IMG/VR virus record: IMGVR_UViG_2893967813_000002
Span: 1 to 64,000 of that record
From: a virus
Lineage: Duplodnaviria; Caudoviricetes
Strand: one strand, 5' to 3'
Length of the DNA: 64,000 bases
Numbering within the stretch: the first letter of the stretch is position 1; each line of letters starts with the position of its first letter. A program made the position numbers and the translations under genes. Positions 4,571 to 38,528 of the stretch are shown piece after piece. The notes beneath the pieces were generated by a model that had not been told where the DNA came from, did not search any database, and saw only the letters and a program-made list of their open reading frames with translations.

Positions 4571-4783
4571 ATGTTTGAATTGCTGTTGATTATATATCTG
4601 TTGCCGGTACTTATTATCGGTATGTTGCTCCTGAAGCTGGTATTCTGGCTTTTGAAGATTGCCATACGTCTGGCAGTCTGGTTGGTAAAAAAGGCTTTCA
4701 TCCTTATATGGAAGCTTATCGTACTTGTCTTTGCCATACTTATAGGCTGTGATGTCATGCCCTGGAATCAACCGGACAAATAG
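4571..4783 (+). CDS. Small hydrophobic membrane protein
   Basis: 70 aa, almost entirely hydrophobic with spaced Lys residues. Confidence 0.55.
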   Translation: MFELLLIIYLLPVLIIGMLLLKLVFWLLKIAIRLAVWLVKKAFILIWKLIVLVFAILIGCDVMPWNQPDK

Positions 4784-4856: not shown

Positions 4857-6352
4857 TTAGAATCCCTTGCCTTTGCTTCTGACATATACTGCTTCTTTTT
4901 GAGAATCACAGTTTGTCAATCGGAACTGTACATTACATCCTATGGGGATGTCATTAGGAAGTTGATTGGCAAGTGCTGAAATGACATCATCAACGGTATC
5001 AAAACCTATGTCTGTAACTTCGGCAATAACTTCGCCTTTGAAATATGCTCTTCCATATATCATCATCTTTTTTGTAATACGAAACATTTTCTCTGCAGGT
5101 GATTCAAAGTTACGAACCAAACTCTGTTTACTGTTTTTATTACTGAAAAATATGAAGTCTATGATTTTTGCATTAAGTTCCCATGCTGGAGTAAAGTCTA
5201 TTTTTACATAGCCTCTTGTTATATTAAATCCATGGCTATGGTTCATACCAAATGCTACCTCATACATATTTGCTCCACAATCGTTTTGAGCAATGGTTGC
5301 CCAGGTATGACGAAACGTATAAAAGCAATAATATTCCTCCTTGGACATTCCCATATCTTGGCATATTCGCCTGATTCCCATATTTATATTGGCATTGAAA
5401 CTATCGGAATTACTATAACGACTATGAAAATTAAACAGATATTCATCTGTCTGGTCCGTAGATAGATATTTATTAAATGTATCCTGTATAAACGGTTCAA
5501 TACGAATCTCCATGTATGCTTCATCCCTACGACTATGTCTTGTTTTCGCTCTCTTATATCCTATAATACCATTTTTATAATCTTTCTTTTTCAGTTCGTA
5601 AAGGTCTATCGTGTTAATACCACCCATACACAATGAAAGCAGGGCTATATCTCTGCCGAGTTCAGGAAGGGGAGATACCATTTTACTTTGTGGCAGAGGA
5701 CGATTAAAGAATTCACGACAAGCTTCTGCACTGATTGCTCTTTTCAGTGTATTGTCTGATTTTGGGATTATAATTTTTAGCCATGGATTGTATTTTATAC
5801 GCAAAATACCACGTTCTTCGTCATTCAATTCTATGATTGCTTTCTTAAAAATCTGTCTGATGCAAGTGGGATACATTTCTTTTGCTCTGCTGGTCTTATA
5901 CAATGTGTCAATCCATTGTGTTAAAACAGAAGTCGTAAGAATGCTAAACATGATTTTGGTAGTACCTATATACCGTTCTAAATGATTGACTGCAAGTTTA
6001 TAGTTTTTAGCATTACGTTCATGCCCTTCAGATTCCATCTTCGAAATAAACTTTCTCGCATAATCACTGAAGCATGTCTCTTCATCATTTTTGTGAAGGA
6101 ATTCTATGACATCCTTAAGTTCCCAAAATGTAGCGTCAACACGATTCAGTTTGTCTGTATATTGGCGTATGATTATGGCACAATATTCATCACTACCGGA
6201 TCTGTTAACTCACCACTACTGGTTATATGAGCCGGATCAATAATCTTGTTAGTCTTGATGTAACTTGTTTTGCGCTGATGTGTGACTCTAATGTAAACTG
6301 TATAGAATCCATCTGATCTTGGCTTTTTTACCGTTGCTTTGAATGTTGTCAT
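4857..6352 (-). CDS. int: Tyrosine recombinase/integrase with N-terminal arm-binding domain; frameshift near 6195
   Basis: MTTFKATVKKPRSDG...YIRVTH arm-binding start at 6352; catalytic residues K(RAK), YTFRHTWAT, H(SH), Y(TRGY); one G restores the frame into ORF 4857..6038. Confidence 0.9.
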
Positions 6353-25722: not shown

Positions 25723-26289
25723 TTAAAAACTAAATAGGTTATACGATATGCCCACTCCGAGGTAAGGGGCGAACTGTGGAGTTCCTCTCAATGTCATCCC
25801 ATAGCCGACCTGTATGCCGATGCTCCATCTCTTGGGCTTTGGGCGTTTGGTTATGGTCATGGTTTCATGCGGCATACGCAATATCAGGCTGTCAAGGCTT
25901 GTATTGTATCCGCTCACGTATGCTGTATAGGTGCTATCCTCATACACTTTCTGCGTAATCGGTATAAACACGTCCGCACTATCTGGAACGCTTTTGTCGA
26001 AATTCCCTAAACTATCCTGCGTATTGGGTACAAAATCGGGCGTTTTTGGGGGCGTTTCGGGTAATTTGGGAACGCTTACCGGCAATTTTGCGATTATATT
26101 TCCCAATGGCAAGGCCGCTTTGGGAACAGGCTTATAGTAAGGAATCGTGTCATACACCGTCACCCTGACCGTGTCCGGCACCGCTGATTTCTCCTTGTGT
26201 CCGTTCAACCCCTTACCCCCATTCCACAGAACAGAGCCGATAAGCAGCATCAACAGCACGCACAACAATATGTTTTTAGTCCTTTCCAT
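25723..26289 (-). CDS. Membrane-anchored lysis-cassette protein (DUF6808/spanin-like)
   Basis: N-terminal TM segment, Pro-rich linker, KRWSIGIQVGYG C-terminus; follows the endolysin. Confidence 0.55.
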   Translation of the reverse strand: MERTKNILLCVLLMLLIGSVLWNGGKGLNGHKEKSAVPDTVRVTVYDTIPYYKPVPKAALPLGNIIAKLPVSVPKLPETPPKTPDFVPNTQDSLGNFDKSVPDSADVFIPITQKVYEDSTYTAYVSGYNTSLDSLILRMPHETMTITKRPKPKRWSIGIQVGYGMTLRGTPQFAPYLGVGISYNLFSF

Positions 26290-26873
26290 ACTTGTAATCC
26301 CAATCCGTCAATGCTGTAACATGAGTTCGCACAATGGCATCACGCCCTTTATCTGAAGTAAGGTAAGCTACATCCTGCTCATTGTCCATGAAAAAGTTTT
26401 CCGTAAGGACTGCAGGGCATTTTGTTTTGCGCAGGATATAGAAAGCTTCTTCCCAGTCAGGGTCACCGTCCGATAAACCTTACGGATTGTAAGTCCGGCA
26501 AAATTCTTTTCCGCTTCGGCATACAGCATGGTGGCAAGTTCATCGCTCTTGGTTTTGCCTTTGCTTGTATAGGCACTCCAACCACGGGCCTTGCCCCATT
26601 CACCGTTTTTCGATGCGTTGCAATGAATGGAAACAAGTACCACATTCTCAGCACCAAAACGCCCACAAATCTCATTCACACGTCTTACTCGTTCTTCAAG
26701 GGGTATGTCTTCGCTTTCGGTTACAATGCGCTCCGCATCAATGCCCAAAAATTTCAACTCTCCCTCGATGCTTTTTGCTATTTCTCGTGCGTAGCTGTAT
26801 TCTCTGAACTTACCGTCAGGCTACGTTTTCCCGGAGTATTCTCGCCATGTCCGTTGTCAATCAATATTTTCAT
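26276..26873 (-). CDS. N-acetylmuramoyl-L-alanine amidase endolysin (Amidase_3); several frameshifts
   Basis: MKILIDNGHGENTPGKRS, FREY, VSIHCNA, ARGWSAYTSKG, LTENFFMDN across frames. Confidence 0.85.
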
Positions 26874-26891
26874 GCTTGGTAATTTATTGGG

Positions 26892-27251
26892 TTAGTATTC
26901 GCTTGGCGGAATTCGGTCTGCACAACCGTGTTTGTTACATTTTCGGAATTCCAGTGCCTGATTTTGAACGGCAAGTTCGCTGTTCTTTTCACTTAGTTCG
27001 CGGATAGTGTCGCGATATTGGGTTATCTCAGTATAAAGGTGGTCAATCTTTGCGTCCAGTTCGGCAACCCGCTTTTCTTTCTTCTCGTACAATTCTTTCC
27101 ACTCCGCAGCATAAGCTGTGATGTTGTCCGCCTCAGCTTTCTCAGCCTCGGAATCTGCTTTTTTTGTCTTGCTTTTAATCAATAGTAAGGGTAATATCAC
27201 CAATGTGATGAGAGAACCGATAACTTGGATAATCGTGCTTAATTGCTCCAT
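26892..27251 (-). CDS. Holin-like protein (1 TM + coiled coil)
   Basis: N-terminal TM then coiled coil, directly upstream of the endolysin. Confidence 0.5.
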   Translation of the reverse strand: MEQLSTIIQVIGSLITLVILPLLLIKSKTKKADSEAEKAEADNITAYAAEWKELYEKKEKRVAELDAKIDHLYTEITQYRDTIRELSEKNSELAVQNQALEFRKCNKHGCADRIPPSEY

Positions 27252-27484
27252 ATCAAAGTTCCTCCAATTAAACATCCCAAACAAACTCCGGCTATCGTTA
27301 AACCGAAATCAATCCAATCCCATTTGCCGCCATGCGCCTTGTCCTTATATTCCAATGCACCTGCCGTCAATACTCCGGCATACACCCCGGTAAACCAACC
27401 GAGTGCAAAAATGCCGATAATCAGTCCTCCAATGAGGTGTTTCCACCTGTTGCTCATTCCGAGCCAATCAATAAACTTTTTCAT
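27239..27484 (-). CDS. Small membrane protein in the lysis cassette
   Basis: 2-3 Gly-rich TM segments, KDKAHGGKWDWIDFGLT. Confidence 0.55.
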   Translation of the reverse strand: MKKFIDWLGMSNRWKHLIGGLIIGIFALGWFTGVYAGVLTAGALEYKDKAHGGKWDWIDFGLTIAGVCLGCLIGGTLIWSN

Positions 27485-27492
27485 TGTCATCG

Positions 27493-27975
27493 CTATTTTA
27501 AATTAAACATAGTCCAATCCACACTGTCTTTTTCCCTCCATCCGTCCTGAACGGTCTTTATCACATAGGCACACACCGATTGGGAGAACGCAATAAAATC
27601 ATCTGCATTCTCGAAAGTATGATAGATGGGCGTACCATCTTCCTGTTCGTTGATTTTTAGGGTAAGCGGATAAGGGATGTTTTCACTTCGCTCTATGGCG
27701 GAAAAGTTCAGTTGGTTCTCGGTAGAAAGGTATATCTGCTTCTTGTTCCAGACAAAACCGTTTATAATCTTCTCCTCCGTTGTCTTGTTTATAGCGGACA
27801 CGACAATCTCTTTGACCTCGGAAAGTGTAGGCTTGCGGTTGAATGTATGCCTGTATTCCCAACCGCTTTCACTCTTTTCATCGTCTTTCCAAAAGCCAAA
27901 AAACAATATCCACTTGGAGCGTCCTGTACGCACAAGACAATCCTGCCGCTGCTTTGTGCCGTAAATCTTTTCCAT
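27493..27975 (-). CDS. DUF4376-like tail-fibre-associated protein
   Basis: INGFVWNKKQIYLSTENQLN...GWREKDSVDW pattern. Confidence 0.5.
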   Translation of the reverse strand: MEKIYGTKQRQDCLVRTGRSKWILFFGFWKDDEKSESGWEYRHTFNRKPTLSEVKEIVVSAINKTTEEKIINGFVWNKKQIYLSTENQLNFSAIERSENIPYPLTLKINEQEDGTPIYHTFENADDFIAFSQSVCAYVIKTVQDGWREKDSVDWTMFNLK

Positions 27976-27997
27976 TTTTGTGAGTTTTGATTTCAGG

Positions 27998-28041
27998 CAA
28001 AAATAGCGGAATCCAAGTGGATTAATATGTTATCCTTTTAC
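27998..28041 (-). promoter_or_regulatory. Putative phage late promoter P2 (lysis/tail operon)
   Basis: GTAAAAGGATAACA 36 nt upstream of TATTTTTG. Confidence 0.55.
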
Positions 28042-28043
28042 CA

Positions 28044-29531
28044 TCAGGTAAAATTGTATTTTCTCTTTCCTCCGTCAAATACCTCGCATTTGAGAACCGT
28101 TTCAAATGGGAAACCATCTTCAATGTCGCTGATTTGGTCAAGAATGCCTTTCATCTCAACAGAAGCTGTAAAGAACTTTCCCCATTCTTGGGTTGTAGGA
28201 TTGCGGAAAGATACAAGATAACGGTCTTCTCCTTCTTTGGTATCTATACCCGTTTCAAAATCATGTATCTCAATTGGTATATTTACGATGTCACTCAATC
28301 TCATTACTTTTCCGGGAAAGCGTTTCTTTCCGTCAGCAGGAGTATATGTAACTCCCATTTCTGAAAATTTCTTCATTTTCTTGTTTGTAAGTATGTAAAA
28401 CAAATGTTTGCAATCAGCATGGCAAGCCATTCCTTTGAATGAACCTATGATTTCCTGCCTTCTTTTGCGTGATTTGACTTTGGCAAGATTTCTGGCTGCA
28501 TTCTGTTTCGTCCGTTTCCTTAGCAAGGAATACTCCCCGAAATTCACATAACCCAAAGCATCCATGCCGGATGAAATGGGGGCGACTTTCTCGCTGGGCT
28601 TGATGGTCAGTCCAAGTTTGGCACTTTCTTCATGTAGGCAATTCCTTAGTCTCCACAACTCCTTTTTGCTTTCGCCGAGGATAAAGGTGTCATCACAAAA
28701 ACGGAAATAATATGACGCACCGTGCTGTTCTATCATCGCATGGTCAAGGTCATTTAGATACAGGTTGCCGAAAAACTGGGAGGAACGAAGTCCCTTGCTG
28801 ATACCGGCATCCGCATCGGGATATAACACTTTGACAAAATTCTCCAATATCGGCAGCAAAATCGGGTCGGCGATGTATTTCCTGATTTTGTCTATCAATA
28901 TGCTATGAACGATATGGTCATAGTAGCCTTGATAGTCTGATTGATAGAAGTATTTCAGGTTTGGATTTGCTTTCATTGCGGCTTGAATGGCATGAAACAA
29001 ACCTTGCGGCCCTCTTCCCTTGATGGAAGCTGCAGTTGTCTCTATCAGAATGGGAGTAAGTTTTTCCTCTATGATTTCCATAATGGCATTACTGCCCATC
29101 CTTTCAAAGACAGCAGGGGCTTGGACTGTCCGTATTTTAGGACCGTCTTTCGTTTCAAAGGATTTTAGCGTGTTGACTCGGAAAATTCCATTTCCTATCT
29201 GTTCTTTCATTTTTGCAAGTATGGTATCTCGATTGAGTACATATCGTACTTGGCGTGCTGTGTACTTCTTTCCATCAATTAAGACAGAGTTCCTTTTTTC
29301 TGCTTCGGTAGAGGATTGGCTGAGGTTTGACAGCACACGCTTGAATGACGACAATAGGTTTTCTTCCGTTATTATTTCGGGGATGAGGTTGTATAAAGGA
29401 TAACTGACCGAAGGTGTTCCCCCGGTCAGTCCTATAAAATTGTCCGTATCATCATAGACCGCCTTCCGGTCCCGTGAGGAGGATATGAAACCCTCCTCAC
29501 TTGTGGTTAAAGATATGTTCCGGCTTTCCAT
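28044..29531 (-). CDS. DGR reverse transcriptase with C-terminal extension (true start may be downstream of 29531)
   Basis: KIRTVQAP..FERM, AASIKGRG, QSDYQGYYDHI, GLRSSQFFGNLYL (DGR-type SQ), YFRFCDD catalytic motif, DALGY. Confidence 0.93.
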   Translation of the reverse strand: MESRNISLTTSEEGFISSSRDRKAVYDDTDNFIGLTGGTPSVSYPLYNLIPEIITEENLLSSFKRVLSNLSQSSTEAEKRNSVLIDGKKYTARQVRYVLNRDTILAKMKEQIGNGIFRVNTLKSFETKDGPKIRTVQAPAVFERMGSNAIMEIIEEKLTPILIETTAASIKGRGPQGLFHAIQAAMKANPNLKYFYQSDYQGYYDHIVHSILIDKIRKYIADPILLPILENFVKVLYPDADAGISKGLRSSQFFGNLYLNDLDHAMIEQHGASYYFRFCDDTFILGESKKELWRLRNCLHEESAKLGLTIKPSEKVAPISSGMDALGYVNFGEYSLLRKRTKQNAARNLAKVKSRKRRQEIIGSFKGMACHADCKHLFYILTNKKMKKFSEMGVTYTPADGKKRFPGKVMRLSDIVNIPIEIHDFETGIDTKEGEDRYLVSFRNPTTQEWGKFFTASVEMKGILDQISDIEDGFPFETVLKCEVFDGGKRKYNFT

Positions 29532-29636
29532 AAATAATATATTATAATGCTTTTGCCGAGGCGCGAACCCCTCGGAGAATATAATTGCCCAACTCGTAGG
29601 CGTATAGGGTCTCCGATTAGTTAACCATCAGAATTT
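29457..29636 (-). ncRNA. Structured spacer of the DGR template RNA (between TR and RT)
   Basis: Hairpins CCGAGG/CCTCGG (29556-75), GTGAGGAGG/CCTCCTCAC (29474-500), GACCG/CGGTC (29457-71). Confidence 0.5.
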
Positions 29637-29746
29637 GAGCCGACCACCGTAGTTCGTGTTCGAGTTCGAAGATGCGTTGTTCGCGTTCGCATAAGCGAGA
29701 CCGGAGTTCGCATTCGAGTTGTTGCCAGACCGAAGAACACAGCGGC
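29637..29746 (-). repeat. DGR template repeat (TR)
   Basis: 110-bp non-coding copy of VR; 10 AAC/AAT codons in the target frame (RCVLRSGNNSNANSGLAYANANNASSNSNTNYGGRL). Confidence 0.96.
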
Positions 29747-29771
29747 GCGCGGGGTTGTCTGCCTTTATGTA

Positions 29772-30074
29772 TCAAATGGCGAATTTTCCTAAACCTACTA
29801 TTTCAAGGTTGATACTCATTCCCATTGCACGAAATACTTTTCTGATTGTCTGTATGGTAAGATTGCTTCCTTTCTCAATGCGAGAAATCTGCGCTTTCTT
29901 AACTCCAATCATTTCGCCAAGCTGTTCCTGAGTGATGTTTCTTGATTCACGGGCTTGTTTGATTGCCTCACCAATCAAGAACGCATCAACCTTTGCTTCA
30001 TATTCGTCACGTCTTGGAGTTCCTTTAACCCCAATTACGCTGTCCAGCATTTCTTCGTGAGTGTAAAGTTTCAT
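29772..30074 (-). CDS. HigA-like XRE HTH antitoxin
   Basis: IKQARESRNITQEQLGEMIGVKKAQISRIEKGSNLT; overlaps the toxin stop. Confidence 0.85.
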   Translation of the reverse strand: MKLYTHEEMLDSVIGVKGTPRRDEYEAKVDAFLIGEAIKQARESRNITQEQLGEMIGVKKAQISRIEKGSNLTIQTIRKVFRAMGMSINLEIVGLGKFAI

Positions 30075-30415
30075 ATCTTCTGCTTTTTATCGTTAAAATA
30101 CTGTTTTCTAATATTCTCTGCCTTATCAATTTCTTTTGATGGGGTCTTCTGCGTTTTCTTTATAAAGCCGTGAGTGGCAATTACCAAAGTGTCCTCTTCT
30201 GTATCCCAAAATGCCAAAAGCCGATAACAGATGCCATTGTAAAGCGTTCTGAACTCCCAAATATCCGTACCTTCCAATTTCTTAAAAAGTTCTTTGTCTA
30301 TGACAACTCTACTTTTGAAGATATTATAAGCGATTTTATCTTGTACCTTCTCCGGCAAAGAATGGATAAATTCATAAGCTTCTTCTGTATAAACTATTTT
30401 GAATCTCGTTTCCAT
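30071..30415 (-). CDS. RelE/HigB (Gp49-like) type II toxin
   Basis: FKKLEGTDIWEFR...YRLLAF...THGFIKKTQKTP..EI; toxin-first order. Confidence 0.85.
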   Translation of the reverse strand: METRFKIVYTEEAYEFIHSLPEKVQDKIAYNIFKSRVVIDKELFKKLEGTDIWEFRTLYNGICYRLLAFWDTEEDTLVIATHGFIKKTQKTPSKEIDKAENIRKQYFNDKKQKI

Positions 30416-30436
30416 TATTAACTTGATTTCCTTTTG

Positions 30437-30468
30437 CAAAGGTAATAAACAGTTTACATATAAAGAAA
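30437..30468 (-). promoter_or_regulatory. TA promoter with palindromic candidate operator
   Basis: TACCTTTG -7 box (30437-44); TAAAC-A-GTTTA palindrome at 30446-56. Confidence 0.5.
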
Positions 30469-30506
30469 CTTTTCGCTGTCTTTTTACATGAATGATTTAT
30501 AATCGA

Positions 30507-30583
30507 CTCGCTTCGCGAGAATAAAGAAAGAGGGAGCAGCCTTACGGCTCTCCCTCTGACGTTTTTTACGAACTCACGAGTTC
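30507..30583 (-). other. Hairpin cluster downstream of VR (DGR target-recognition hairpin and/or terminator)
   Basis: GAACTC/GAGTTC (30570-83); GAGGGAG-AGCC/GGCT-CTCCCTC with GTAA loop on the minus strand (30530-56); CTCGC/GCGAG (30507-19). Confidence 0.6.
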
Positions 30584-30587
30584 CGCT

Positions 30588-33500
30588 CTATTCTATAATA
30601 ACGAATTTTCCGCGGAAGGCGAGCCGACCACCGTAGTACGTGCTCGAGTACGAAGATGCGTAGTTCGCGCTCGCATAAGCGAGACCGGAGCTCGCATTCG
30701 AGTTGTAGCCAGACCGAAGAACACAGCGGCCTCTACTACCACTCATCCAGAAACCGGCAGCATAATGGGTCACATACATGCTTGTGTCTGTCTTGTGAAC
30801 TCGACTCGGAAGGACATCACATTTCGCTCCATGTACGATACGCACAACACAATTCCCGTTGGATGATTCAACCGTTTTGACTGTGCGCTCCGTTTTTGTA
30901 ACAGGGTCGTAAATATGAGCGGTGTAATCAATCGGATATGAACTGTCATTCTCCGTACATTTGGCTTTATAAAAATCTTCATAAGTCGGGACATTGAACG
31001 CAATGTAGTCCATCCATTCGGAATCACAGCCTACATAGTGCTTTAATCCCAAAATGGAGTTAAGGTTGTTCCCTACATTATAGGAATCTCCCATACCAAC
31101 GTTATCCTGTTTGTTCAGGATAGCGTCATGCACACCGTTGCCGACTACCGACTGTTCATTGGTCGTTCCGTTCAACGCCCACCACAAGTTACTGACTTCT
31201 TTGTGCTGCTCGTAGTCCTGCAACTGGTAGCCCGGTCCTCTCATGCGGCAGATATTCTGAAAGTCCTTGGCAGTGTAGTTCAATGTGCCGATTGGCATTT
31301 CAAGCGGATTGCCCTCACTGTCATATTTCCATTCATTTGAGGTTACGGATGTTCCGTTACCTTTCTTTGAACGTACATCGCCGGATAGGCTTCTCGGCAT
31401 CTTCAAGCCGTCTATGGTGATTGGATAGACACCGATAAGGCTGTCATTGTCGCCTACGGTATGCTCTGTCCATTCAGGTTCTATGGCTTCGATGTTGTCA
31501 CTGTCCACAGTCAGACACTCAATGTCCCCGATGTCACGGAAAGAGGTGAAGTAAAACCACTTTGCACCGCTTGGCACATCGCAGAAGATGTAATCTCCAA
31601 TGGAGAAGTCAAAATAAGTGTGGCTGACAGACATGATGAATATGCTTATCGCTCGGTTGTTCTCGTCCGTGAAGACACCTCCGAGGCGCGCATGATTCAA
31701 TCCCGGCCATCTTACCTGCTTCATGCCTTTCACATCCATCCTGTAACTGTTGGTGTTGGATGCGGTGGCTATCACATCCTCGCTCAGAATTTCACCGATA
31801 ACGGCATCATTCGCATAAACACCGGTATTTTCCCGGTATAGCAGCTCTGACAGCTTCGCCTTTTTGCTATGCAACGCAGTTGAAAGCGGTTCGGATTCAG
31901 TAACGGACGGAATGTAATATTTCGCCTGGTTCTTGTAGTCATTCACTCCCTTGTACCAATGATGAGGGGCGTGCCAAAATATGTCAAAGCCCTCTCCTGC
32001 AGAATCGGACACATCAAAACTGCTTCCATCTTTCAGGTAGTTGAAATCCGTATCGCTTACCTGTACGCCTTCCATTTGGTTCTTCTTGGTGTTGTAAGAA
32101 CATTTATAGGCATGGCATCCTTTCTGTATGGCAAGCATATGTCCGCTCGGAATGTAGGTATTCCCATAATCCGCCCCGGTCTTGTTTTCCGGATTGCTGT
32201 ACCTTTCACAAGAATCACTCTCCACAACATCGCTGATTTTTACGATGGAAAATTGAGAGTTGTGAAGTTCAAGTTGGGGAAAATAGGCAGCAAACGCATT
32301 TATTTCGTCTGTTTCCACAAGTTCGCTCAATATCCAACGGCCGGTAATACCGCTACACTGTTCCTTTTCATCATAAGCATTTCCGTTTGCGTCAAGCCCG
32401 ATTGCGCCGCTTTCCTTAATGGAACGCAACAGTCCGACACTGGCGGTTGCATTCACATTGGGAATCCGGACGGTCTTTAGCGCACTCGCATTGACTATCT
32501 GTTCCAATAGCGTCATGGCATCTACATACGGACACTCATTGACAAATATCTTTGTTATCTTGGCTACACCACCGAGCGTCAGTCCGCCGGGATAGGTAAG
32601 GTTGGGCAGGTTGTTCAGCACGAGTTCCGTTATTGTTTCCGGAAGCGTAAGTTTGTCTATCGGCGATGTTTCAGCCAGTGTGATGGCAGAAAGTCCAGTA
32701 TTGTCGGCATATACGGAAACCAGACGAGGACACTTCGATGCGTTGACGGTCTGCACTTCTGTGTTGCGCACATCAAGAATGCGCAAGAACGGCATATCAC
32801 CCAAATCAAGGTTGGTCATATAGCCTGTGTTACCGGGCGACATCGTCCAGTTACCATGCGATTCTCCGCCCACATACAATTCCTGCAACAACGACATCTT
32901 GGGCAATGTGTTTCCAAATTGGGGGTCGATACTGATTTCACTCAAATCAAGCATACTCATGCGGTCTGCCTGATAGATGTATAGCATAATGTTTTCTCCG
33001 TGTTGAAAGTTTGTGAAAACACCTTCTTCTCCGGCTTTCAGGTAAATGCCTTCCGTGATATTTCCGCTGTCATTACCAATGCCAAAATATCCGCTCTTTG
33101 CTGCCTTGAAACGGATGACGGCACCTTCTTTTGCACCGATACGTCCACCGATATAACCACTCTCCGCCTTGAAGTCGCCGCAGCGGTAGTAGCCGTCACG
33201 GATGCGCCAACGTTGTTCAATAAATGCCGGTAGTGAGGTTAGACCCAAGCCTTGCAGGGCATAGAAATAAAGGTCGCTGTACCCTGTATATTTAATATAC
33301 TTGCGTTCTCCGTCATAGCTTGATACCACTTTCTGCCATTTCTTCAAGCGTTCTGTCACGAAATAGTGCATAGCCCCTTTAGGTGAGAAAGGACCCGCGC
33401 CTATACCGAGCGTGTCAGGCAGGGAGCGCATGGTGTCGGCTATGGCCGACAAGGTAATGGTATTGCCGTTTTGGTCAACTTCCATAGTCTGCTGTCCTCT

Positions 33501-36500
33501 TATATCGTTCCACAGCACAGAACCTCGTCCTGCGTATGCACTGTTTGTCAAATCGCCGGGGTCAACTTCCGGGTCAATGGTCTGCCCTCCGTCATTGTCC
33601 TTTCCGTTGCAGGTGTCGCAGTCATATACCTTGTTGCAGTACATCCGTCTTGCCTCCATACCGTTTACACCGCTATATATACCGTCTTTCACGCTGCATC
33701 CGTCCTCCAAGAAGAACATGGGCTGCATATTCTTCGCCTGTTGGTCAACGGCGGCAAGGTAGTCGGTAAACAGGTAGTACGATACCAACGAATAAGGACT
33801 GATGTATTTCCACATCTTCGTCTTCCATATCTCCTGCCATTTTCCTGCAAGTTCTTCCTTGGCATAGTCGCAGCTGTCGCAGAATTTCAGCACCTGATAC
33901 AGGTCGAACGGCACTTTCCGTCCCATGGCCAGGTCTATCTGCAACTGCTCATCGTCAATCATACACTCGAAGTAACGTGTCCACATCGGGTAGGTTTCCT
34001 GTCCAAGTTTCAGTTTGGTAACCCAAGAGGCCTCGGCGGTGGTCGGCTCCATCATGTCGGCAACACTTCCCACTCCCTGCCACCAGTTCATGGCATCATA
34101 GGTCAGAAGTTCGTAACCGCTCACGGGGTTAAGTACTTTCCCGGTAATCTGCCATTTGCCACCAACCTGTTTCATTTCTCCGGTTTGTGCAGTCCATTCA
34201 CCTCTCTCATATGCCATAAAGCGATAATCCTGTCCGCAATACAATGATAAAAGATATAGTTTATCCTTATTTGTTGTTCCATCATTCTTGAAACGAGTTT
34301 CTATCTGGTCAAGATTCTCTCCTTCTTTACCGAAGTATTCTACAAAGTCTCCATAATTGATGCAACCTTTATTGTATCCGGGAGTATCTTTAAAACCAAG
34401 CGCAACCTGTTCTCCTTTGTCTTCTTTCCAGTTTCCTTTGGCGTGAAACCATGCATCGGTAAGGCTTTCTTGTGTCGCACGGAATGCGGCAATGGGATGA
34501 TTGGCTGTCGAATGGTTCATCTGCAATCCTTTCAACGAGACATCGCTTTTGGTCCAAGTGCCGTCAAATGCACGCTGTGCCGGAGTAAGGTAATCACTGC
34601 CAAGAGCACGGAAAGTGGCATTCATCAGGTCGCATACACCGCAGTCGTTTGCCCCGGAACTGTCAGAATAGTCCACCTTTACTGTGATAATCTTCACAGG
34701 AATAGTATTTTCTCCTACACGCACATAGCCTATTTTCATAAGTTCGTATGAAATTCGGGCATCTTCGTTGTCATAGTCCGGGTAGATAGGTGTAACTTCC
34801 CAACCTTCATTTTTCTGAAGATAGAAGCGGTCGTTCTTGATAGGTCGCTTTGCCGATGTTGTTCCCTGTCTTCTCCATTGTACATTGATTGCCTTGAAAC
34901 TTCTCCATGGTCGTTTCGGGTCGTAGTAGAATAGTGTACATTTGAATTTCTTGCTCGTATCTATGTCACCGTCAAATGTGTCAAAGGTCTGCTGGTCTGC
35001 CACCACCACATAATAAGGCATTCCCTTGGCAGAAAGGGCTTCTATGGTGGGGCGGTTTTGCGTGTCAAGCACGTTCTCTTTCTCGTATTCCACAACCATG
35101 GCAGTGGTGTCTGTCAGTTTGCACAAGTAGTTTTGGAACGCCTGTGCCCATTCATAATGACTCTCGTAGGCAAGCATATAGTACAGGTATAGGTCTCCTT
35201 CCGTACCGTTGAACGTAACGGTTCTGTTGTTAAGGATTGCACCACTGTCACTGATATAACCGATACAGCCCACTTCTTCTCCGTTCAAATACAACTTCAT
35301 GCAGGAGTAATTGCTTCCACCCCGTGATACATAAATGGTGGACGGTTCGACAACTACTGCCATCGTGATTTTCTCGCCAGAGCGAAAGCTGCGCTCAACT
35401 AAGGCAGGCTGTCCTGTTTTACAGTAGATAGCAGCTTTGTTGCCGCATACATAGAAACCTGCACCGCTATCAGGGTCATAACACTCTATGAGTTTTGAAT
35501 CTGCTTCCTTGATGTTCTTGGTGGCAAATGCGAATTGGACGGCACAACCTGTAGTCCGTTCGGTGGCAGAGTTCCCGAAAGGGTAGTAATCCAATATCTC
35601 CGCTTTCACATTCTCTGCTATGCGAAGGCATCGTTCGCCCAAGTAGTCCACGAATCCGTTGCTTGACCAGTTTGCGCCCCTTACATCCATAGTTATGCCG
35701 TTGTTTTCTATGGTATGGTCGCTCTCGCTGTTGCTGCGCGCGGAAAAATCATATCCGAACAAAGCTCCGTCCTTGATGGCCATGTCAATGGCACTCCCTT
35801 TTACAATTACCTTGATTTCATTGGTGGACACATTTCCGCTCTTGGCATGTACGGTAATGCTCTGGCTTCCGTCCGTGCTGTATCCGCTTATCTGCTTGTT
35901 CACGGTAAGCGTTTCGGCAATCATGGCTTCCACGGATGTCACTTTCTCATCGTCATAGAAGACATCCACGTGCGTTTCCGTTTTACCCGATGTGTATGCT
36001 GCGACCTCTATGGTAAGGTTATCATACAGGCGGAGCGTACCGTTGTTGGTGTCGTTGAACCGGATTGCCACGATAGGAGTGGTGTCCTCGGCATCAATAC
36101 ACATGATAGCAGAGTAAATGGTATTGCCCCTTACTCCTGATTTGTTTTCCGTTCCGTAAATGCGTACCGGGTATGCCCCATGTGTCATCCGTTCGCCGCC
36201 GCCGAATACATTACTCGGATTGATGGATATGCTCTTGGTGTAACTGTCATTGACTGTTGCCTCTCCCAGTTTCTTCCATTCCCCGTTGTAGAGCATTTCC
36301 ACTGTGGCACGTATGGATGAGGTGTTGTTTGGGAATTTGTAGAACTGTCCTATATTTTTTGCTGTGCCTCCTACGGTCAATGCGGTGCTGCTTGTGTAGT
36401 TGAGCGGCATAGGCTGTTCAACTGTAATATCCACAGCAACAATGGTAATGGCTTTCTTCTTGGTGTTCCCGTCCGCATCGGTAGCCTGAACAAAGAAACT

Positions 36501-38528
36501 CTTGGATGCGGCACTGCTGAAGTACTCAGTAAAGTCAAGTTCAAACTTGTAGTCCGTTGCACTTGCTGAGCCGGTTTCGTTCATTGCCTCGCTATACAGG
36601 GTAAGTCCTGTGCTTGCATCAATGATTGAAACATTACGGATAACGCCAAGCACTTCGTTACCGTCCGGGTAACTGACACTACGCAAAGCTACATTAATTT
36701 TTATCTCGGAACCGAACGCCACAATGGGGGCGGCTTCCTCAAAGTAGATGGACAGGGTGCTGTCCTCGCTCGAACCTCCGCCTCCTCCATTTTTCGGAAT
36801 CTTAAGTACTACATCTTCTATCTGTCCCCCGTTCAGGTTCACGGCTTTGTAGTAGATATATTCCTCATCGCTTTCTTCGTCAAATCCTCCGATTGATTTT
36901 TCCTGCATGGCGTATGCGCCTCCTGTGGAAAGGGCATCTTTCCCTCCTTCTTCCGGTTTATCGGATGTTTCCACGTTGCTTCCTCCGCCACCGAATGCTA
37001 CCCATGGTTTCAAGTCCTCCGGTGTTATGTCGCTCGCTTCACGTGTAAATTGGTAGGTGAGCCACACGGGTGCACCGTTCTTGTCGCTTTCTGCAGTCTT
37101 GAACGTAAGGATGATACCGCTTTTAAGATAAACTTCCCCATTCTCCTTTTCAAAGTCTGACACGGCTTTGATGGCTGTTGACAAAGTGTATTCCACATTT
37201 CCGCACAGAGCATTTACATTGATTATATCGCCTATGCCCTTGCCACCACCTGCTCCGAAATCGCTCCAGTTGTTTTCTTTAAACCAGTCCGATGTATCAG
37301 TCCATTGTTTGGAAACCCATCCGGATTCCGTCAGGAAGGTCAATACAACACCTGGTATTTTCAATACCGGGGAATATTCGGGGGCGGAACACCGGTCAAG
37401 GGCAACGGAGAATGTTATCTCCCTGTCCGCAAGGTCAAACAGTTGGTTGACATTCACAATGCTACGCGCCACGATTTGCTTGTTTTGCGAAAGTATGGTT
37501 TTCCTGTTTTCTTCCACCTGCTTGATGTCTTCCTGTAACTTCGCACCTTCATCGCCGGGAAATGCCGTTGAACTTGTATGTCCGAGAGCGAGGTCTGAAC
37601 CGATGACGGTCAGTTGCGTGCCGCTCCAACGGTAACTCTTTCCATCCTCTTTGCAGAGGAAAACTTTTCCTGAATAAGGAATCCGCCCATTCATGCTTAC
37701 CGAACCGAAATTGTCGGCATCCAGCCAGTTGTTGTAATAGGTGGGGGCAGAAACGGTTTCCCCTGTATTGGGAGCATACGAGATGACAAAGCAACCGTTG
37801 GTCTTGTCATAAACGACATTGCATCCCTCATCGGTGGAACTCTTGTCAAGGCTTGCCGTTTGGGTGGTAATACCGGTAACGATTTCCTGAAACTCAACCG
37901 CATCATCCACGTATGCGGGCAGGTGTCGGCTCGGTATCTTGCCCAGTTCGTCCAAAGGGGCAAGCCCGCCGTTTTCCCCCTTTGAGTTCTTGAATGTATT
38001 CAGCTGACCGCTGACTTCATTGGCTTTGTCACTTGCTTTTTTTGCTGTGTCTTTGACAGTATTGACTTGTCCTTGCAGTGAGTTGACGCTGTTTCCGAGA
38101 GTGGTCAGTTGTGTATCCTGTGCCTTGTCTTTTCCCTCAATGTCGGTCACATCGTCTTGCAACTTGGTAATATCCTCCTGCAATTTTTCAATGGCTTCGT
38201 TATACTCTCCGCTGTCAATGGTCGGATTGCCGCCGCTATGCCCGGTCGGCACCCATTCTCCGCCGTCGGCGACATATATCGGTGCAGGAAGAGAAGTTCC
38301 GACAAGTGCCCACCAGCCGTCATGCGGAAAAGGATAAGCTGCTTTTAACTTTTCAATGGTAGTGTACAGACCTTTTCCTGCTCCTTTGATATTTTTGGCT
38401 TCAAGCCAACCATCTACGACAACATTTCCTTTCAGATGGGTTTTCCCTTGGACAGTGGCATCGCCTCCTATTGCCGTATTGCGACCTACTGATACATCAC
38501 CATCTATATGCTTTGATTCGTAACTCAT
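30588..38528 (-). CDS. 2,646-aa DGR target: tail fibre/receptor-binding protein (LamG-like, CotH-like, LRR-like, C-terminal CLec/FGE fold)
   Basis: VR in the last ~45 codons with the typical R.G...A..G......N..S......GGRLAF end; located in the structural module. Confidence 0.85.
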   Translation of the reverse strand: MSYESKHIDGDVSVGRNTAIGGDATVQGKTHLKGNVVVDGWLEAKNIKGAGKGLYTTIEKLKAAYPFPHDGWWALVGTSLPAPIYVADGGEWVPTGHSGGNPTIDSGEYNEAIEKLQEDITKLQDDVTDIEGKDKAQDTQLTTLGNSVNSLQGQVNTVKDTAKKASDKANEVSGQLNTFKNSKGENGGLAPLDELGKIPSRHLPAYVDDAVEFQEIVTGITTQTASLDKSSTDEGCNVVYDKTNGCFVISYAPNTGETVSAPTYYNNWLDADNFGSVSMNGRIPYSGKVFLCKEDGKSYRWSGTQLTVIGSDLALGHTSSTAFPGDEGAKLQEDIKQVEENRKTILSQNKQIVARSIVNVNQLFDLADREITFSVALDRCSAPEYSPVLKIPGVVLTFLTESGWVSKQWTDTSDWFKENNWSDFGAGGGKGIGDIINVNALCGNVEYTLSTAIKAVSDFEKENGEVYLKSGIILTFKTAESDKNGAPVWLTYQFTREASDITPEDLKPWVAFGGGGSNVETSDKPEEGGKDALSTGGAYAMQEKSIGGFDEESDEEYIYYKAVNLNGGQIEDVVLKIPKNGGGGGSSEDSTLSIYFEEAAPIVAFGSEIKINVALRSVSYPDGNEVLGVIRNVSIIDASTGLTLYSEAMNETGSASATDYKFELDFTEYFSSAASKSFFVQATDADGNTKKKAITIVAVDITVEQPMPLNYTSSTALTVGGTAKNIGQFYKFPNNTSSIRATVEMLYNGEWKKLGEATVNDSYTKSISINPSNVFGGGERMTHGAYPVRIYGTENKSGVRGNTIYSAIMCIDAEDTTPIVAIRFNDTNNGTLRLYDNLTIEVAAYTSGKTETHVDVFYDDEKVTSVEAMIAETLTVNKQISGYSTDGSQSITVHAKSGNVSTNEIKVIVKGSAIDMAIKDGALFGYDFSARSNSESDHTIENNGITMDVRGANWSSNGFVDYLGERCLRIAENVKAEILDYYPFGNSATERTTGCAVQFAFATKNIKEADSKLIECYDPDSGAGFYVCGNKAAIYCKTGQPALVERSFRSGEKITMAVVVEPSTIYVSRGGSNYSCMKLYLNGEEVGCIGYISDSGAILNNRTVTFNGTEGDLYLYYMLAYESHYEWAQAFQNYLCKLTDTTAMVVEYEKENVLDTQNRPTIEALSAKGMPYYVVVADQQTFDTFDGDIDTSKKFKCTLFYYDPKRPWRSFKAINVQWRRQGTTSAKRPIKNDRFYLQKNEGWEVTPIYPDYDNEDARISYELMKIGYVRVGENTIPVKIITVKVDYSDSSGANDCGVCDLMNATFRALGSDYLTPAQRAFDGTWTKSDVSLKGLQMNHSTANHPIAAFRATQESLTDAWFHAKGNWKEDKGEQVALGFKDTPGYNKGCINYGDFVEYFGKEGENLDQIETRFKNDGTTNKDKLYLLSLYCGQDYRFMAYERGEWTAQTGEMKQVGGKWQITGKVLNPVSGYELLTYDAMNWWQGVGSVADMMEPTTAEASWVTKLKLGQETYPMWTRYFECMIDDEQLQIDLAMGRKVPFDLYQVLKFCDSCDYAKEELAGKWQEIWKTKMWKYISPYSLVSYYLFTDYLAAVDQQAKNMQPMFFLEDGCSVKDGIYSGVNGMEARRMYCNKVYDCDTCNGKDNDGGQTIDPEVDPGDLTNSAYAGRGSVLWNDIRGQQTMEVDQNGNTITLSAIADTMRSLPDTLGIGAGPFSPKGAMHYFVTERLKKWQKVVSSYDGERKYIKYTGYSDLYFYALQGLGLTSLPAFIEQRWRIRDGYYRCGDFKAESGYIGGRIGAKEGAVIRFKAAKSGYFGIGNDSGNITEGIYLKAGEEGVFTNFQHGENIMLYIYQADRMSMLDLSEISIDPQFGNTLPKMSLLQELYVGGESHGNWTMSPGNTGYMTNLDLGDMPFLRILDVRNTEVQTVNASKCPRLVSVYADNTGLSAITLAETSPIDKLTLPETITELVLNNLPNLTYPGGLTLGGVAKITKIFVNECPYVDAMTLLEQIVNASALKTVRIPNVNATASVGLLRSIKESGAIGLDANGNAYDEKEQCSGITGRWILSELVETDEINAFAAYFPQLELHNSQFSIVKISDVVESDSCERYSNPENKTGADYGNTYIPSGHMLAIQKGCHAYKCSYNTKKNQMEGVQVSDTDFNYLKDGSSFDVSDSAGEGFDIFWHAPHHWYKGVNDYKNQAKYYIPSVTESEPLSTALHSKKAKLSELLYRENTGVYANDAVIGEILSEDVIATASNTNSYRMDVKGMKQVRWPGLNHARLGGVFTDENNRAISIFIMSVSHTYFDFSIGDYIFCDVPSGAKWFYFTSFRDIGDIECLTVDSDNIEAIEPEWTEHTVGDNDSLIGVYPITIDGLKMPRSLSGDVRSKKGNGTSVTSNEWKYDSEGNPLEMPIGTLNYTAKDFQNICRMRGPGYQLQDYEQHKEVSNLWWALNGTTNEQSVVGNGVHDAILNKQDNVGMGDSYNVGNNLNSILGLKHYVGCDSEWMDYIAFNVPTYEDFYKAKCTENDSSYPIDYTAHIYDPVTKTERTVKTVESSNGNCVVRIVHGAKCDVLPSRVHKTDTSMYVTHYAAGFWMSGSRGRCVLRSGYNSNASSGLAYASANYASSYSSTYYGGRLAFRGKFVIIE
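30621..30730 (-). repeat. DGR variable repeat (VR)
   Basis: 103/110 identical to TR; 4 A>T and 3 A>G changes, all at TR adenines; encodes the C-terminus of the target. Confidence 0.96.

What the first reader, a model, noticed from the sequence alone, without database searches (positions are those of the whole stretch)
29637..30468. Toxin-antitoxin operon inside the DGR, reading straight into the template repeat
Seen: order on the minus strand is VR, hairpins, promoter with TAAACAGTTTA palindrome, RelE/HigB toxin, HTH antitoxin, then TR only 25 nt after the antitoxin stop, then RT. No terminator is evident before TR. The TA pair occupies the slot normally held by avd. Knowledge: HigA-type antitoxins autorepress their operon and are derepressed under stress. 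Inference: TR-RNA and RT may be under TA control, coupling tail-fibre hypermutation to stress. Alternatively the TA stabilises the cassette, provides abortive defence, or its RNase processes the TR RNA.
Basis: partly seen in the sequence, partly recalled or inferred. Interest (0 to 1): 0.8.

Follow-up and report, generated by a model that had tools for sequence, protein, structure and literature searches.

The report
Toxin-antitoxin cassette supplies DGR template promoter
In this gut Bacteroides phage, a toxin-antitoxin gene pair with its own self-repressed promoter sits where related phages keep the promoter for their tail-protein mutating machinery (a DGR), so the two are probably transcribed together, although the pair is optional and was acquired several separate times.

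Summary
On the minus strand the order is VR (30730-30621), two hairpins, a Bacteroides-type -7 box (30444-30437), a HigB-like toxin (30415-30071), an Xre-HTH antitoxin (30074-29772), 25 nt, TR (29746-29637) and RT (29531-28044).

Across about 100 related DGR loci, every complete locus has a TAnnTTTG box in the VR-to-RT interval (one, or two adjacent in one clade).
- In 25 loci without the pair, the box lies 18-39 nt before TR.
- In loci with the pair, it lies 4-21 nt before the toxin ATG, with none between the antitoxin and TR.

The cassette therefore replaced the native TR promoter, and toxin-antitoxin-TR-RT co-transcription is the best reading. This is inferred; no usable RNA data exist.

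The pair is not needed for mutagenesis. Siblings without it, with near-identical RTs, still show adenine-only VR changes, and this lineage has no Avd.

The pairs in four DGR lineages fall in at least 3 separate places among free-standing Bacteroidales pairs, so capture or exchange was recurrent.

Stress-coupled hypermutation remains speculative. This scan already reached the same reading on another genome (e1-5932233).

The parts
30621..30730 (-). Variable repeat (VR) at the 3' end of the 2646-aa target ORF (38528..30588)
   Evidence: 110-nt repeat with TR. All 7 of 7 mismatches fall on TR adenines. Twelve near-identical phage contigs carry 12 distinct VRs, and all 24 TR adenines vary.
30529..30557 (-). 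Hairpin 1: G+C-rich stem with a GUAA loop and a U-rich tail, just after the target stop. It looks like a terminator and like the DGR target-site hairpin.
   Evidence: Centroid structure (z -2.8). It is conserved in all lineages, with a compensatory change in L067.
30507..30519 (-). Hairpin 2 (CTCGC-GAA-GCGAG) followed by TCGAT. It is a general feature of this DGR family and is not part of the cassette.
   Evidence: Present both in loci with the pair and in loci without it.
30451..30470 (-). Probable HigA operator: inverted repeat AGTTTC-N8-GTAAACT, overlapping the -33 region.
   Evidence: A homologous GTTyC-N6-7-GrAAC repeat lies just upstream of the -7 box in free-standing relatives L085, L087, L088, L089, L094, L100, L103 and in DGR locus L021. 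The exact motif occurs only once in the window.
30437..30444 (-). Bacteroides-type -7 promoter box, TACCTTTG
   Evidence: It is the only minus-strand TAnnTTTG between 27998 and 36684. An equivalent box is conserved in every complete related locus.
30071..30415 (-). HigB-like toxin, 114 aa (RelE/ParE superfamily, Pfam Gp49/DUF891)
   Evidence: Sequence and fold matches. All family-invariant residues are retained (E54, R56, R65, G83, K86, K87, P92, A99).
29772..30074 (-). HigA-like Xre-HTH antitoxin, 100 aa; its start overlaps the toxin stop by 4 nt
   Evidence: the overlap is read.
29747..29771 (-). 25-nt leader between the antitoxin stop and TR. Its 3' part is shared with siblings that lack the pair.
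   Evidence: the conserved GGCAGAnAAyCCC...GCGC stretch precedes TR both in loci with the pair and in loci without it.
29637..29746 (-). Template repeat (TR), 24 adenines
29532..29636 (-). TR-to-RT spacer RNA region with a conserved CTCCGAGG...CCTCGGCAA hairpin. It holds no promoter box and no terminator.
28044..29531 (-). DGR reverse transcriptase, 495 aa, with a C-terminal extension
   Evidence: RVT_1 match. The GxxxSQ motif is read. 91 relatives were found.

Best explanation
A mobile HigBA-type type II toxin-antitoxin cassette has replaced the short promoter-plus-leader segment that, in relatives lacking the pair, sits directly 5' of the template repeat of this Avd-less phage DGR. The cassette consists of its own Bacteroides-type promoter, an operator-like inverted repeat, a HigB-like toxin and an Xre-HTH antitoxin.

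TR and RT therefore have no recognisable promoter of their own. They are most likely made as the 3' part of one toxin-antitoxin-TR-RT transcript that starts at the cassette promoter. By analogy with other HigBA systems, that promoter is repressed by the antitoxin or the toxin-antitoxin complex.

The pair is an optional accessory. It is not part of the mutagenic retrohoming machinery. It has nevertheless been captured or exchanged at exactly this position several times.

Shown: the anatomy, the family assignments, the promoter positions across about 100 loci, dispensability, and polyphyly of the pairs. Inferred: co-transcription, autorepression, and any physiological coupling.
For: 1. Promoter position. 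Every complete locus has a sense-strand TAnnTTTG box in the VR-end to RT-start interval: one box, or two adjacent boxes in the 74% clade.
- In 25 loci without the pair, it lies 18-39 nt upstream of TR.
- In lineages with the pair (window, L021/L001/L189, L042, L177), it lies 4-21 nt upstream of the toxin ATG and 655-712 nt upstream of TR, with none after the antitoxin.
- In the window it is the only minus-strand match between 27998 and 36684.

2. The promoter and operator arrived with the cassette. The same inverted repeat sits just upstream of the -7 box in free-standing chromosomal relatives.

3. No terminator-like site or stable structure lies between the antitoxin and TR or RT. A strong terminator-like hairpin follows the target gene.

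4. The toxin and antitoxin are bona fide.

5. The DGR is active with the pair present: 12 of 12 distinct VRs, and all 24 TR adenines vary.

6. Capture was recurrent.
- The DGR-linked pairs need at least 3 changes on the toxin-antitoxin tree.
- None of 80 free-standing relatives lies next to an RT of this family.
- L177 has an RT only 57% identical to L021, but its toxin and antitoxin are 78% and 81% identical.

7. In Bacteroides, DGR activity tracks avd-TR-rt transcript levels (bioRxiv 10.1101/2024.11.15.621889).
Against: - There is no transcript evidence. The RNA-labelled runs cover the whole phage evenly as long contigs, which is most simply DNA carry-over.
- TAnnTTTG is not enriched in the window as a whole (59 matches against 50 expected).
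- Bacteroides promoters can deviate from the consensus, so a weak internal promoter in the antitoxin gene is not excluded. A 7/8 match, TAGGTTTA, lies about 40 nt before TR (read).
- Read-through from the target gene is not excluded.
- Only 10 of 59 free-standing relatives have a simple terminator, so its absence here is not discriminating.
- Siblings without the pair mutate their VR equally well, so any coupling is not essential.
Confidence: 0.6

Rival explanations
1. Pure passenger. The pair is an ordinary phage 'moron', an addiction or abortive-infection module that landed in one of the few non-coding gaps of the tail module. TR and RT are transcribed independently, from an unrecognised promoter inside the antitoxin gene or by read-through from the target gene, with no functional link.
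For: - The pair is optional within a clade whose RTs are near-identical.
- The same family is very common as free-standing pairs in Bacteroidales: 410 relatives in the species-representative genomes.
- Wu et al. 2017 (PMC5758913) regard ORFs nested between DGR parts as non-functional passengers.
- The consensus promoter scan is weak evidence on its own.
Against: - The native TR promoter seen in all 25 loci without the pair is missing, and nothing recognisable replaces it after the antitoxin.
- Every occupied slot, in four DGR lineages carrying at least three distinct pair lineages, holds this one kind of cassette. No other cargo was ever seen there.
- A terminator-like hairpin follows the target gene.
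Confidence: 0.22
2. Guard against collapse. The pair lies inside the interval that VR-TR homologous recombination deletes. Lysogens that lose the spacer, and with it a working DGR, would lose the antitoxin gene and be killed or arrested by the longer-lived toxin. This would keep the cassette intact. It may act alongside transcriptional coupling.
For: - Collapsed VR/TR recombinants are real and recurrent: L002 (BKO1-TP3), L007, L038, L064, L080, L191.
- L007 shows that the collapse removes the pair.
- Collapsed forms are about 1 of 58 contigs in clades with the pair, against 3 of 28 in clades without it.
Against: - The difference is not robust. Fisher p ranges from 0.015 to 0.37 depending on how L002 and L038 are assigned. 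The contigs are also not independent.
- Post-segregational killing cannot act during lytic replication.
- Lineages without the pair persist with intact DGRs.
Confidence: 0.1
3. Machinery role. The pair substitutes for Avd, or the toxin RNase trims the long transcript to release a functional TR RNA.
For: It occupies the same position as avd in BPP-1. HigB-type toxins are RNases (fold matches).
Against: - Siblings and all outgroup lineages work with an empty spacer and no Avd.
- Neither protein resembles Avd.
- From established knowledge, HigB/RelE toxins cut mRNA in the ribosomal A site, not free non-coding RNA.
Confidence: 0.03

Closest known systems
Bordetella phage BPP-1 DGR (mtd-VR, avd, TR, brt)
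   Same: The target gene has its VR at the 3' end, followed by a hairpin, then an intervening gene slot, TR and RT. Mutagenesis is adenine-specific.
   Different: There is no Avd anywhere in the record. The slot holds a HigBA pair that is optional. The RT is 495 aa with a C-terminal extension.
Architecture A1 and 'A1-X' DGRs of Wu et al. 2017 (PMC5758913): TR-RT core without accessory genes, sometimes with unrelated ORFs nested between the target and the core
   Same: An Avd-less TR-RT core, with ORFs nested between the target and TR.
   Different: Here the nested ORFs are one defined kind of cassette, captured at least 3 times at the same point. They displace the TR promoter. The paper treats nested ORFs as unconserved passengers and does not mention toxin-antitoxin pairs or promoters in its main text.
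HigBA type II toxin-antitoxin systems (S. pneumoniae HigBA, 6af3/6af4; V. cholerae HigBA2 with operator DNA, 8a0x; M. tuberculosis HigB1 on the ribosome, 7nbu)
   Same: - RelE-fold toxin encoded first, followed by an Xre-HTH antitoxin, with overlapping genes.
- An inverted repeat at the promoter.
   Different: Sequence identity to the solved toxins is only about 22%. Toxicity, neutralisation and DNA binding are untested. The operon runs on into a retroelement template and RT instead of ending.
Bacteroides phage BS-TP4 (PQ571277; Gut Microbes 2025, PMC12694917)
   Same: - Same phage group and same order: target, RelE-like toxin, XRE regulator, TR, RT.
- The genes are annotated as such in GenBank.
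- The RT is 74% identical.
   Different: Its pair is a different lineage (63% and 55% identity). The paper reports the DGR but does not mention a toxin (0 occurrences).
Earlier finding of this scan, e1-5932233 (another genome)
   Same: It reached the same conclusion on a related gut Bacteroides phage: the cassette replaces the DGR promoter, co-transcription is probable, and the pair is optional.
   Different: This report adds independent tests: promoter-box positions in about 100 loci, polyphyly of the pairs, operator homology with free-standing relatives, and the collapsed recombinants.

Membership tests
Type II toxin-antitoxin system, HigBA type | Toxin with the RelE/ParE-superfamily fold | tested here: met
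   - Pfam PF05973 at 63 bits against a cut-off of 23.9.
- Model pLDDT 88.
- Foldseek top hits are HigB 6af4 (TM 0.67) and HigB1 7nbu (TM 0.70), then RelE and YoeB.
Type II toxin-antitoxin system, HigBA type | Adjacent antitoxin with an Xre-type HTH, encoded downstream of the toxin | tested here: met
   HTH_3 at E 5e-15. Hit to HigA 6af3_B. The toxin comes first, with a 4-nt ATGA overlap.
Type II toxin-antitoxin system, HigBA type | Conserved toxin residues of the family retained | tested here: met
   All 8 invariant and 17 near-invariant columns of a 32-sequence alignment are kept, including the THGFIKKTQKTP motif.
Type II toxin-antitoxin system, HigBA type | Autoregulatory operator (inverted repeat) at the promoter | tested here: inconclusive
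An inverted repeat homologous to those of free-standing relatives lies next to the -7 box and is unique in the window.
Type II toxin-antitoxin system, HigBA type | The toxin arrests growth and the antitoxin neutralises it; ribosome-dependent mRNA cleavage | not testable with these tools
   Needs expression assays.
Diversity-generating retroelement | TR/VR pair whose differences fall on TR adenines, with VR at the 3' end of an ORF | tested here: met
   7 of 7 mismatches in the window. Across 12 contigs, 24 of 27 variable columns are TR adenines and all 24 adenines vary.
Diversity-generating retroelement | RT of DGR type next to TR | tested here: met
   RVT_1 match. The GxxxSQ motif (G-L-R-S-S-Q) is read. 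The RT starts 105 nt after TR.
Diversity-generating retroelement | Avd accessory protein (typical but not universal; absent from Architecture A) | tested here: not met
   No PF05635 match in the 76.6-kb record, although the control genome does match. Relatives have no ORF in the slot.
Diversity-generating retroelement | Hairpin downstream of VR | tested here: met
   The hairpin at 30529-30557 has z -2.8. It is conserved with a compensatory change.

The most novel reading that the evidence does not exclude
The self-repressed HigBA promoter makes DGR mutagenesis conditional. TR RNA and RT would be made at a low, repressed level in the steady state. They would rise when the antitoxin is degraded, for example under stress, protease activation or prophage induction. 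Tail-protein diversification would then be switched on just when new hosts are needed. On this reading, the repeated capture of this one kind of cassette at the TR promoter position, in four DGR lineages, reflects selection for such a switch. A secondary benefit may be guarding the VR-TR interval against recombinational collapse.
Probability: 0.2. Interest if true: 0.85.

Novelty: new variant of a known kind. Interest (0 to 1): 0.55.

Why it matters
How DGR mutagenesis is switched on and off is largely unknown. In Bacteroides, activity tracks the level of the avd-TR-rt transcript.

Here a natural series of near-isogenic phages differs only in whether TR-RT sits behind a plain promoter or behind a self-repressed toxin-antitoxin operon. 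A cultured lysogen (P. massiliensis DSM 17679, L189) and isolated phages (BS-TP4) carry the arrangement with the pair. That makes regulated versus constitutive hypermutation directly testable.

The finding also documents two further things:
- repeated lateral capture of one type of toxin-antitoxin pair at a single point of a retroelement;
- VR-TR recombination as a recurrent route by which DGRs decay.

If the coupling proves irrelevant, this is a well-documented passenger insertion.

Tried and rejected
- RNA evidence. One run search and one lay gave only Logan contigs. These cover 26000-33000 evenly, including contigs of 9-15 kb, so DNA carry-over is likely. They give no start, strand or level information and are uninformative.
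- Terminator comparison. Only 10 of 59 free-standing relatives have a simple terminator after the antitoxin. Its absence in the 4 DGR-embedded cassettes therefore says little.
- Extra operator copies elsewhere in the phage: none found.
- Avd elsewhere in the record: none found.
- Rarer collapse in clades with the pair: suggestive but not robust.
- Literature. Searches for DGR together with toxin-antitoxin, HigB, RelE or addiction module found no paper describing this. The supplement of Wu et al. is not held.
- NCBIfam gives no name for the toxin.
- Homology between the promoter spacers of loci without and with the pair: none. Each spacer is lineage-specific.

Full report
**Source and anatomy**

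The window is part of a 76.6-kb IMG/VR virus record. It is related to the isolated temperate Bacteroides phages BS-TP4 and BKO1-TP3 (PMC12694917). On the minus strand the order is as follows:
- a 2646-aa target ORF (38528..30588) ending in VR (30730-30621);
- a G+C-rich hairpin with a U-rich tail (30557-30529);
- a second small hairpin (30519-30507);
- an A/T-rich stretch with a Bacteroides-type -7 box, TACCTTTG (30444-30437);
- the toxin ORF (30415..30071);
- the antitoxin ORF (30074..29772, with a 4-nt ATGA overlap);
- 25 nt of leader, then TR (29746-29637);
- 105 nt of spacer, then the RT (29531..28044).

VR and TR differ at 7 positions, all on TR adenines.

**Identity of the pair**

- The toxin matches Pfam Gp49/DUF891 (E 2e-17), and the antitoxin matches HTH_3 (E 5e-15).
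- The two proteins hit the two chains of the same solved HigBA complex, 6af3.
- A confident model of the toxin (pLDDT 88) has the RelE/HigB fold. Its best matches are S. pneumoniae HigB, M. tuberculosis HigB1 on the ribosome, and V. cholerae HigB2.
- The toxin keeps every invariant residue of a 32-member alignment.
- Toxicity and neutralisation cannot be tested here.

**Survey of relatives**

RT relatives from IMG/VR (80 loci), GTDB genomes (11 loci) and the two isolated phages were analysed with one script.
- Three RT clades carry a toxin-antitoxin pair in the same slot. Their RTs are about 99%, 74% and 68% identical to the window's. The spacer is 844-903 nt.
- The outgroup clades (RT 50-56% identical) have a 160-275 nt spacer with no ORF.
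- Within the 68% clade, forms with and without the pair are intermixed, and their RTs are almost identical (tree).
- The forms without the pair (L044, L047, L052, L057, L061, L066) show 10-17 VR/TR mismatches, all on adenines.

The pair is therefore not needed for mutagenic retrohoming. No Avd exists in the record, so this is an Avd-less lineage (Architecture A of Wu et al. 2017). The pair is not an Avd substitute.

The lineage with the pair is active. Twelve near-identical contigs have 12 different VRs, and all 24 TR adenines vary.

**Promoter argument**

Between the end of VR and the start of the RT, every complete locus has a sense-strand match to the Bacteroides -7 consensus TAnnTTTG. There is one match, or two adjacent matches in the 74% clade.
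- In the 25 loci without the pair, it lies 18-39 nt before TR. One apparent 94-nt case is a truncated repeat call.
- In the lineages with the pair, it lies 4-21 nt before the toxin ATG and 655-712 nt before TR, with none after the antitoxin.

The consensus is from my own knowledge of Bayley et al. 2000. The 17 nt just before TR are shared between siblings with and without the pair. The cassette therefore occupies exactly the promoter-to-leader position.

The promoter came with the cassette. Free-standing chromosomal relatives carry the same inverted repeat (GTTyC-N6-7-GrAAC) just upstream of their -7 box. The window's version is AGTTTC-N8-GTAAACT at 30470-30451.

No terminator or stable structure separates the antitoxin from TR or RT. 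The target gene is followed by a terminator-like hairpin. Co-transcription of toxin, antitoxin, TR and RT from a self-repressed promoter is therefore the best-supported model. It remains an inference. The RNA-labelled public runs only gave contigs that cover the whole phage evenly.

**Origin of the pairs**

- The window toxin has 410 relatives in species-representative genomes. Of the 80 best (35-79% identical), none lies next to an RT of this family.
- On a toxin-plus-antitoxin tree, the DGR-linked pairs fall in at least 3 separate, well-supported places. The window pair groups with L083, L084 and L086. The pair of the 74% clade groups with Prevotella pairs. The pair of the 68% clade sits on a distant branch.
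- A fourth DGR, L177, has an RT closest to outgroup lineages that lack the pair (67% identical). It is only 57% identical to the RT of the 74% clade. Yet its toxin and antitoxin are 78% and 81% identical to that clade's.

So the cassette has been captured or exchanged repeatedly at this one point. No other kind of cargo was seen there. That argues against a one-off accident, but it does not show what is being selected.

**Decay route**

Six loci have a single hybrid repeat in which the target gene runs straight into TR-type sequence and the TR 3' flank. They are L002 (BKO1-TP3), L007, L038, L064, L080 and L191. VR-TR recombination has deleted the spacer in each. L007 shows that this removes the pair. 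The pair could in principle penalise such a collapse in lysogens. The observed difference in collapse frequency is not robust.

**What is known already**

- I found no paper describing a toxin-antitoxin operon driving a DGR.
- Wu et al. note unconserved nested ORFs.
- The GenBank record of BS-TP4 annotates the two genes, but the paper does not discuss them.
- This scan has already reported the same reading on another genome (e1-5932233), and toxin-antitoxin pairs nested in unrelated DGRs (e1-1564628, e1-1564629).

**Verdict**

Transcriptional coupling is likely. Essentiality and the Avd-substitute idea are refuted. Stress coupling is untested.
- I class it as a new variant of a known kind.

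Noticed in passing
L002:6288-6420 (BKO1-TP3); L007, L038, L064, L080, L191 just upstream of the RT: Six related phages or prophages carry a collapsed DGR. VR-TR homologous recombination has deleted the whole spacer, leaving one hybrid repeat fused to the target gene and no separate template.
   Followed up: yes
L004, L008, L009 (TR at 5786-5895): In three contigs of the 99% clade, the TR itself differs from the clade's TR at 9-13 positions. In L004 the TR equals the VR. This is either VR-to-TR conversion, which erodes the template adenines, or a chimeric metagenome assembly of the two repeats.
   Followed up: no
L040:5462-6001: A deletion appears to run from the 3' end of the antitoxin gene through TR into about codon 41 of the RT. 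The toxin is kept, but the antitoxin is truncated.
   Followed up: partly
window 28044-28400 (RT C-terminus): The RT is 495 aa, about 110-130 aa longer than typical DGR RTs, and no Avd gene exists in the record. The extension may take over an accessory role. Another reader of this scan also noted it (e1-5887980).
   Followed up: no
window 30529-30557 and homologues in all loci: The hairpin after the target stop is conserved in sequence across RT clades only 50% identical. L067 shows a compensatory G-C to U-A change. This fits the DGR target-site hairpin doubling as a terminator.
   Followed up: partly
window 30611-30736, run X2: One metatranscriptome/virome run assembles two alternative 126-nt VR contigs, with 11 and 12 differences from the window. 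VR is therefore heterogeneous within a single sample.
   Followed up: no
L189 (Phocaeicola massiliensis DSM 17679, NZ_KB905472.1 1293521-1303008): A cultured type strain carries a prophage with the DGR that includes the pair. Its toxin and antitoxin are identical to the 74% clade's, and 11 of 11 VR/TR mismatches fall on adenines. It is a ready experimental system.
   Followed up: partly
L177:3696-3816 vs 4689-4782: In this fourth DGR with a pair, TR is about 27 nt shorter than VR and aligns to it in two blocks. This is an internal deletion in the template.
   Followed up: no
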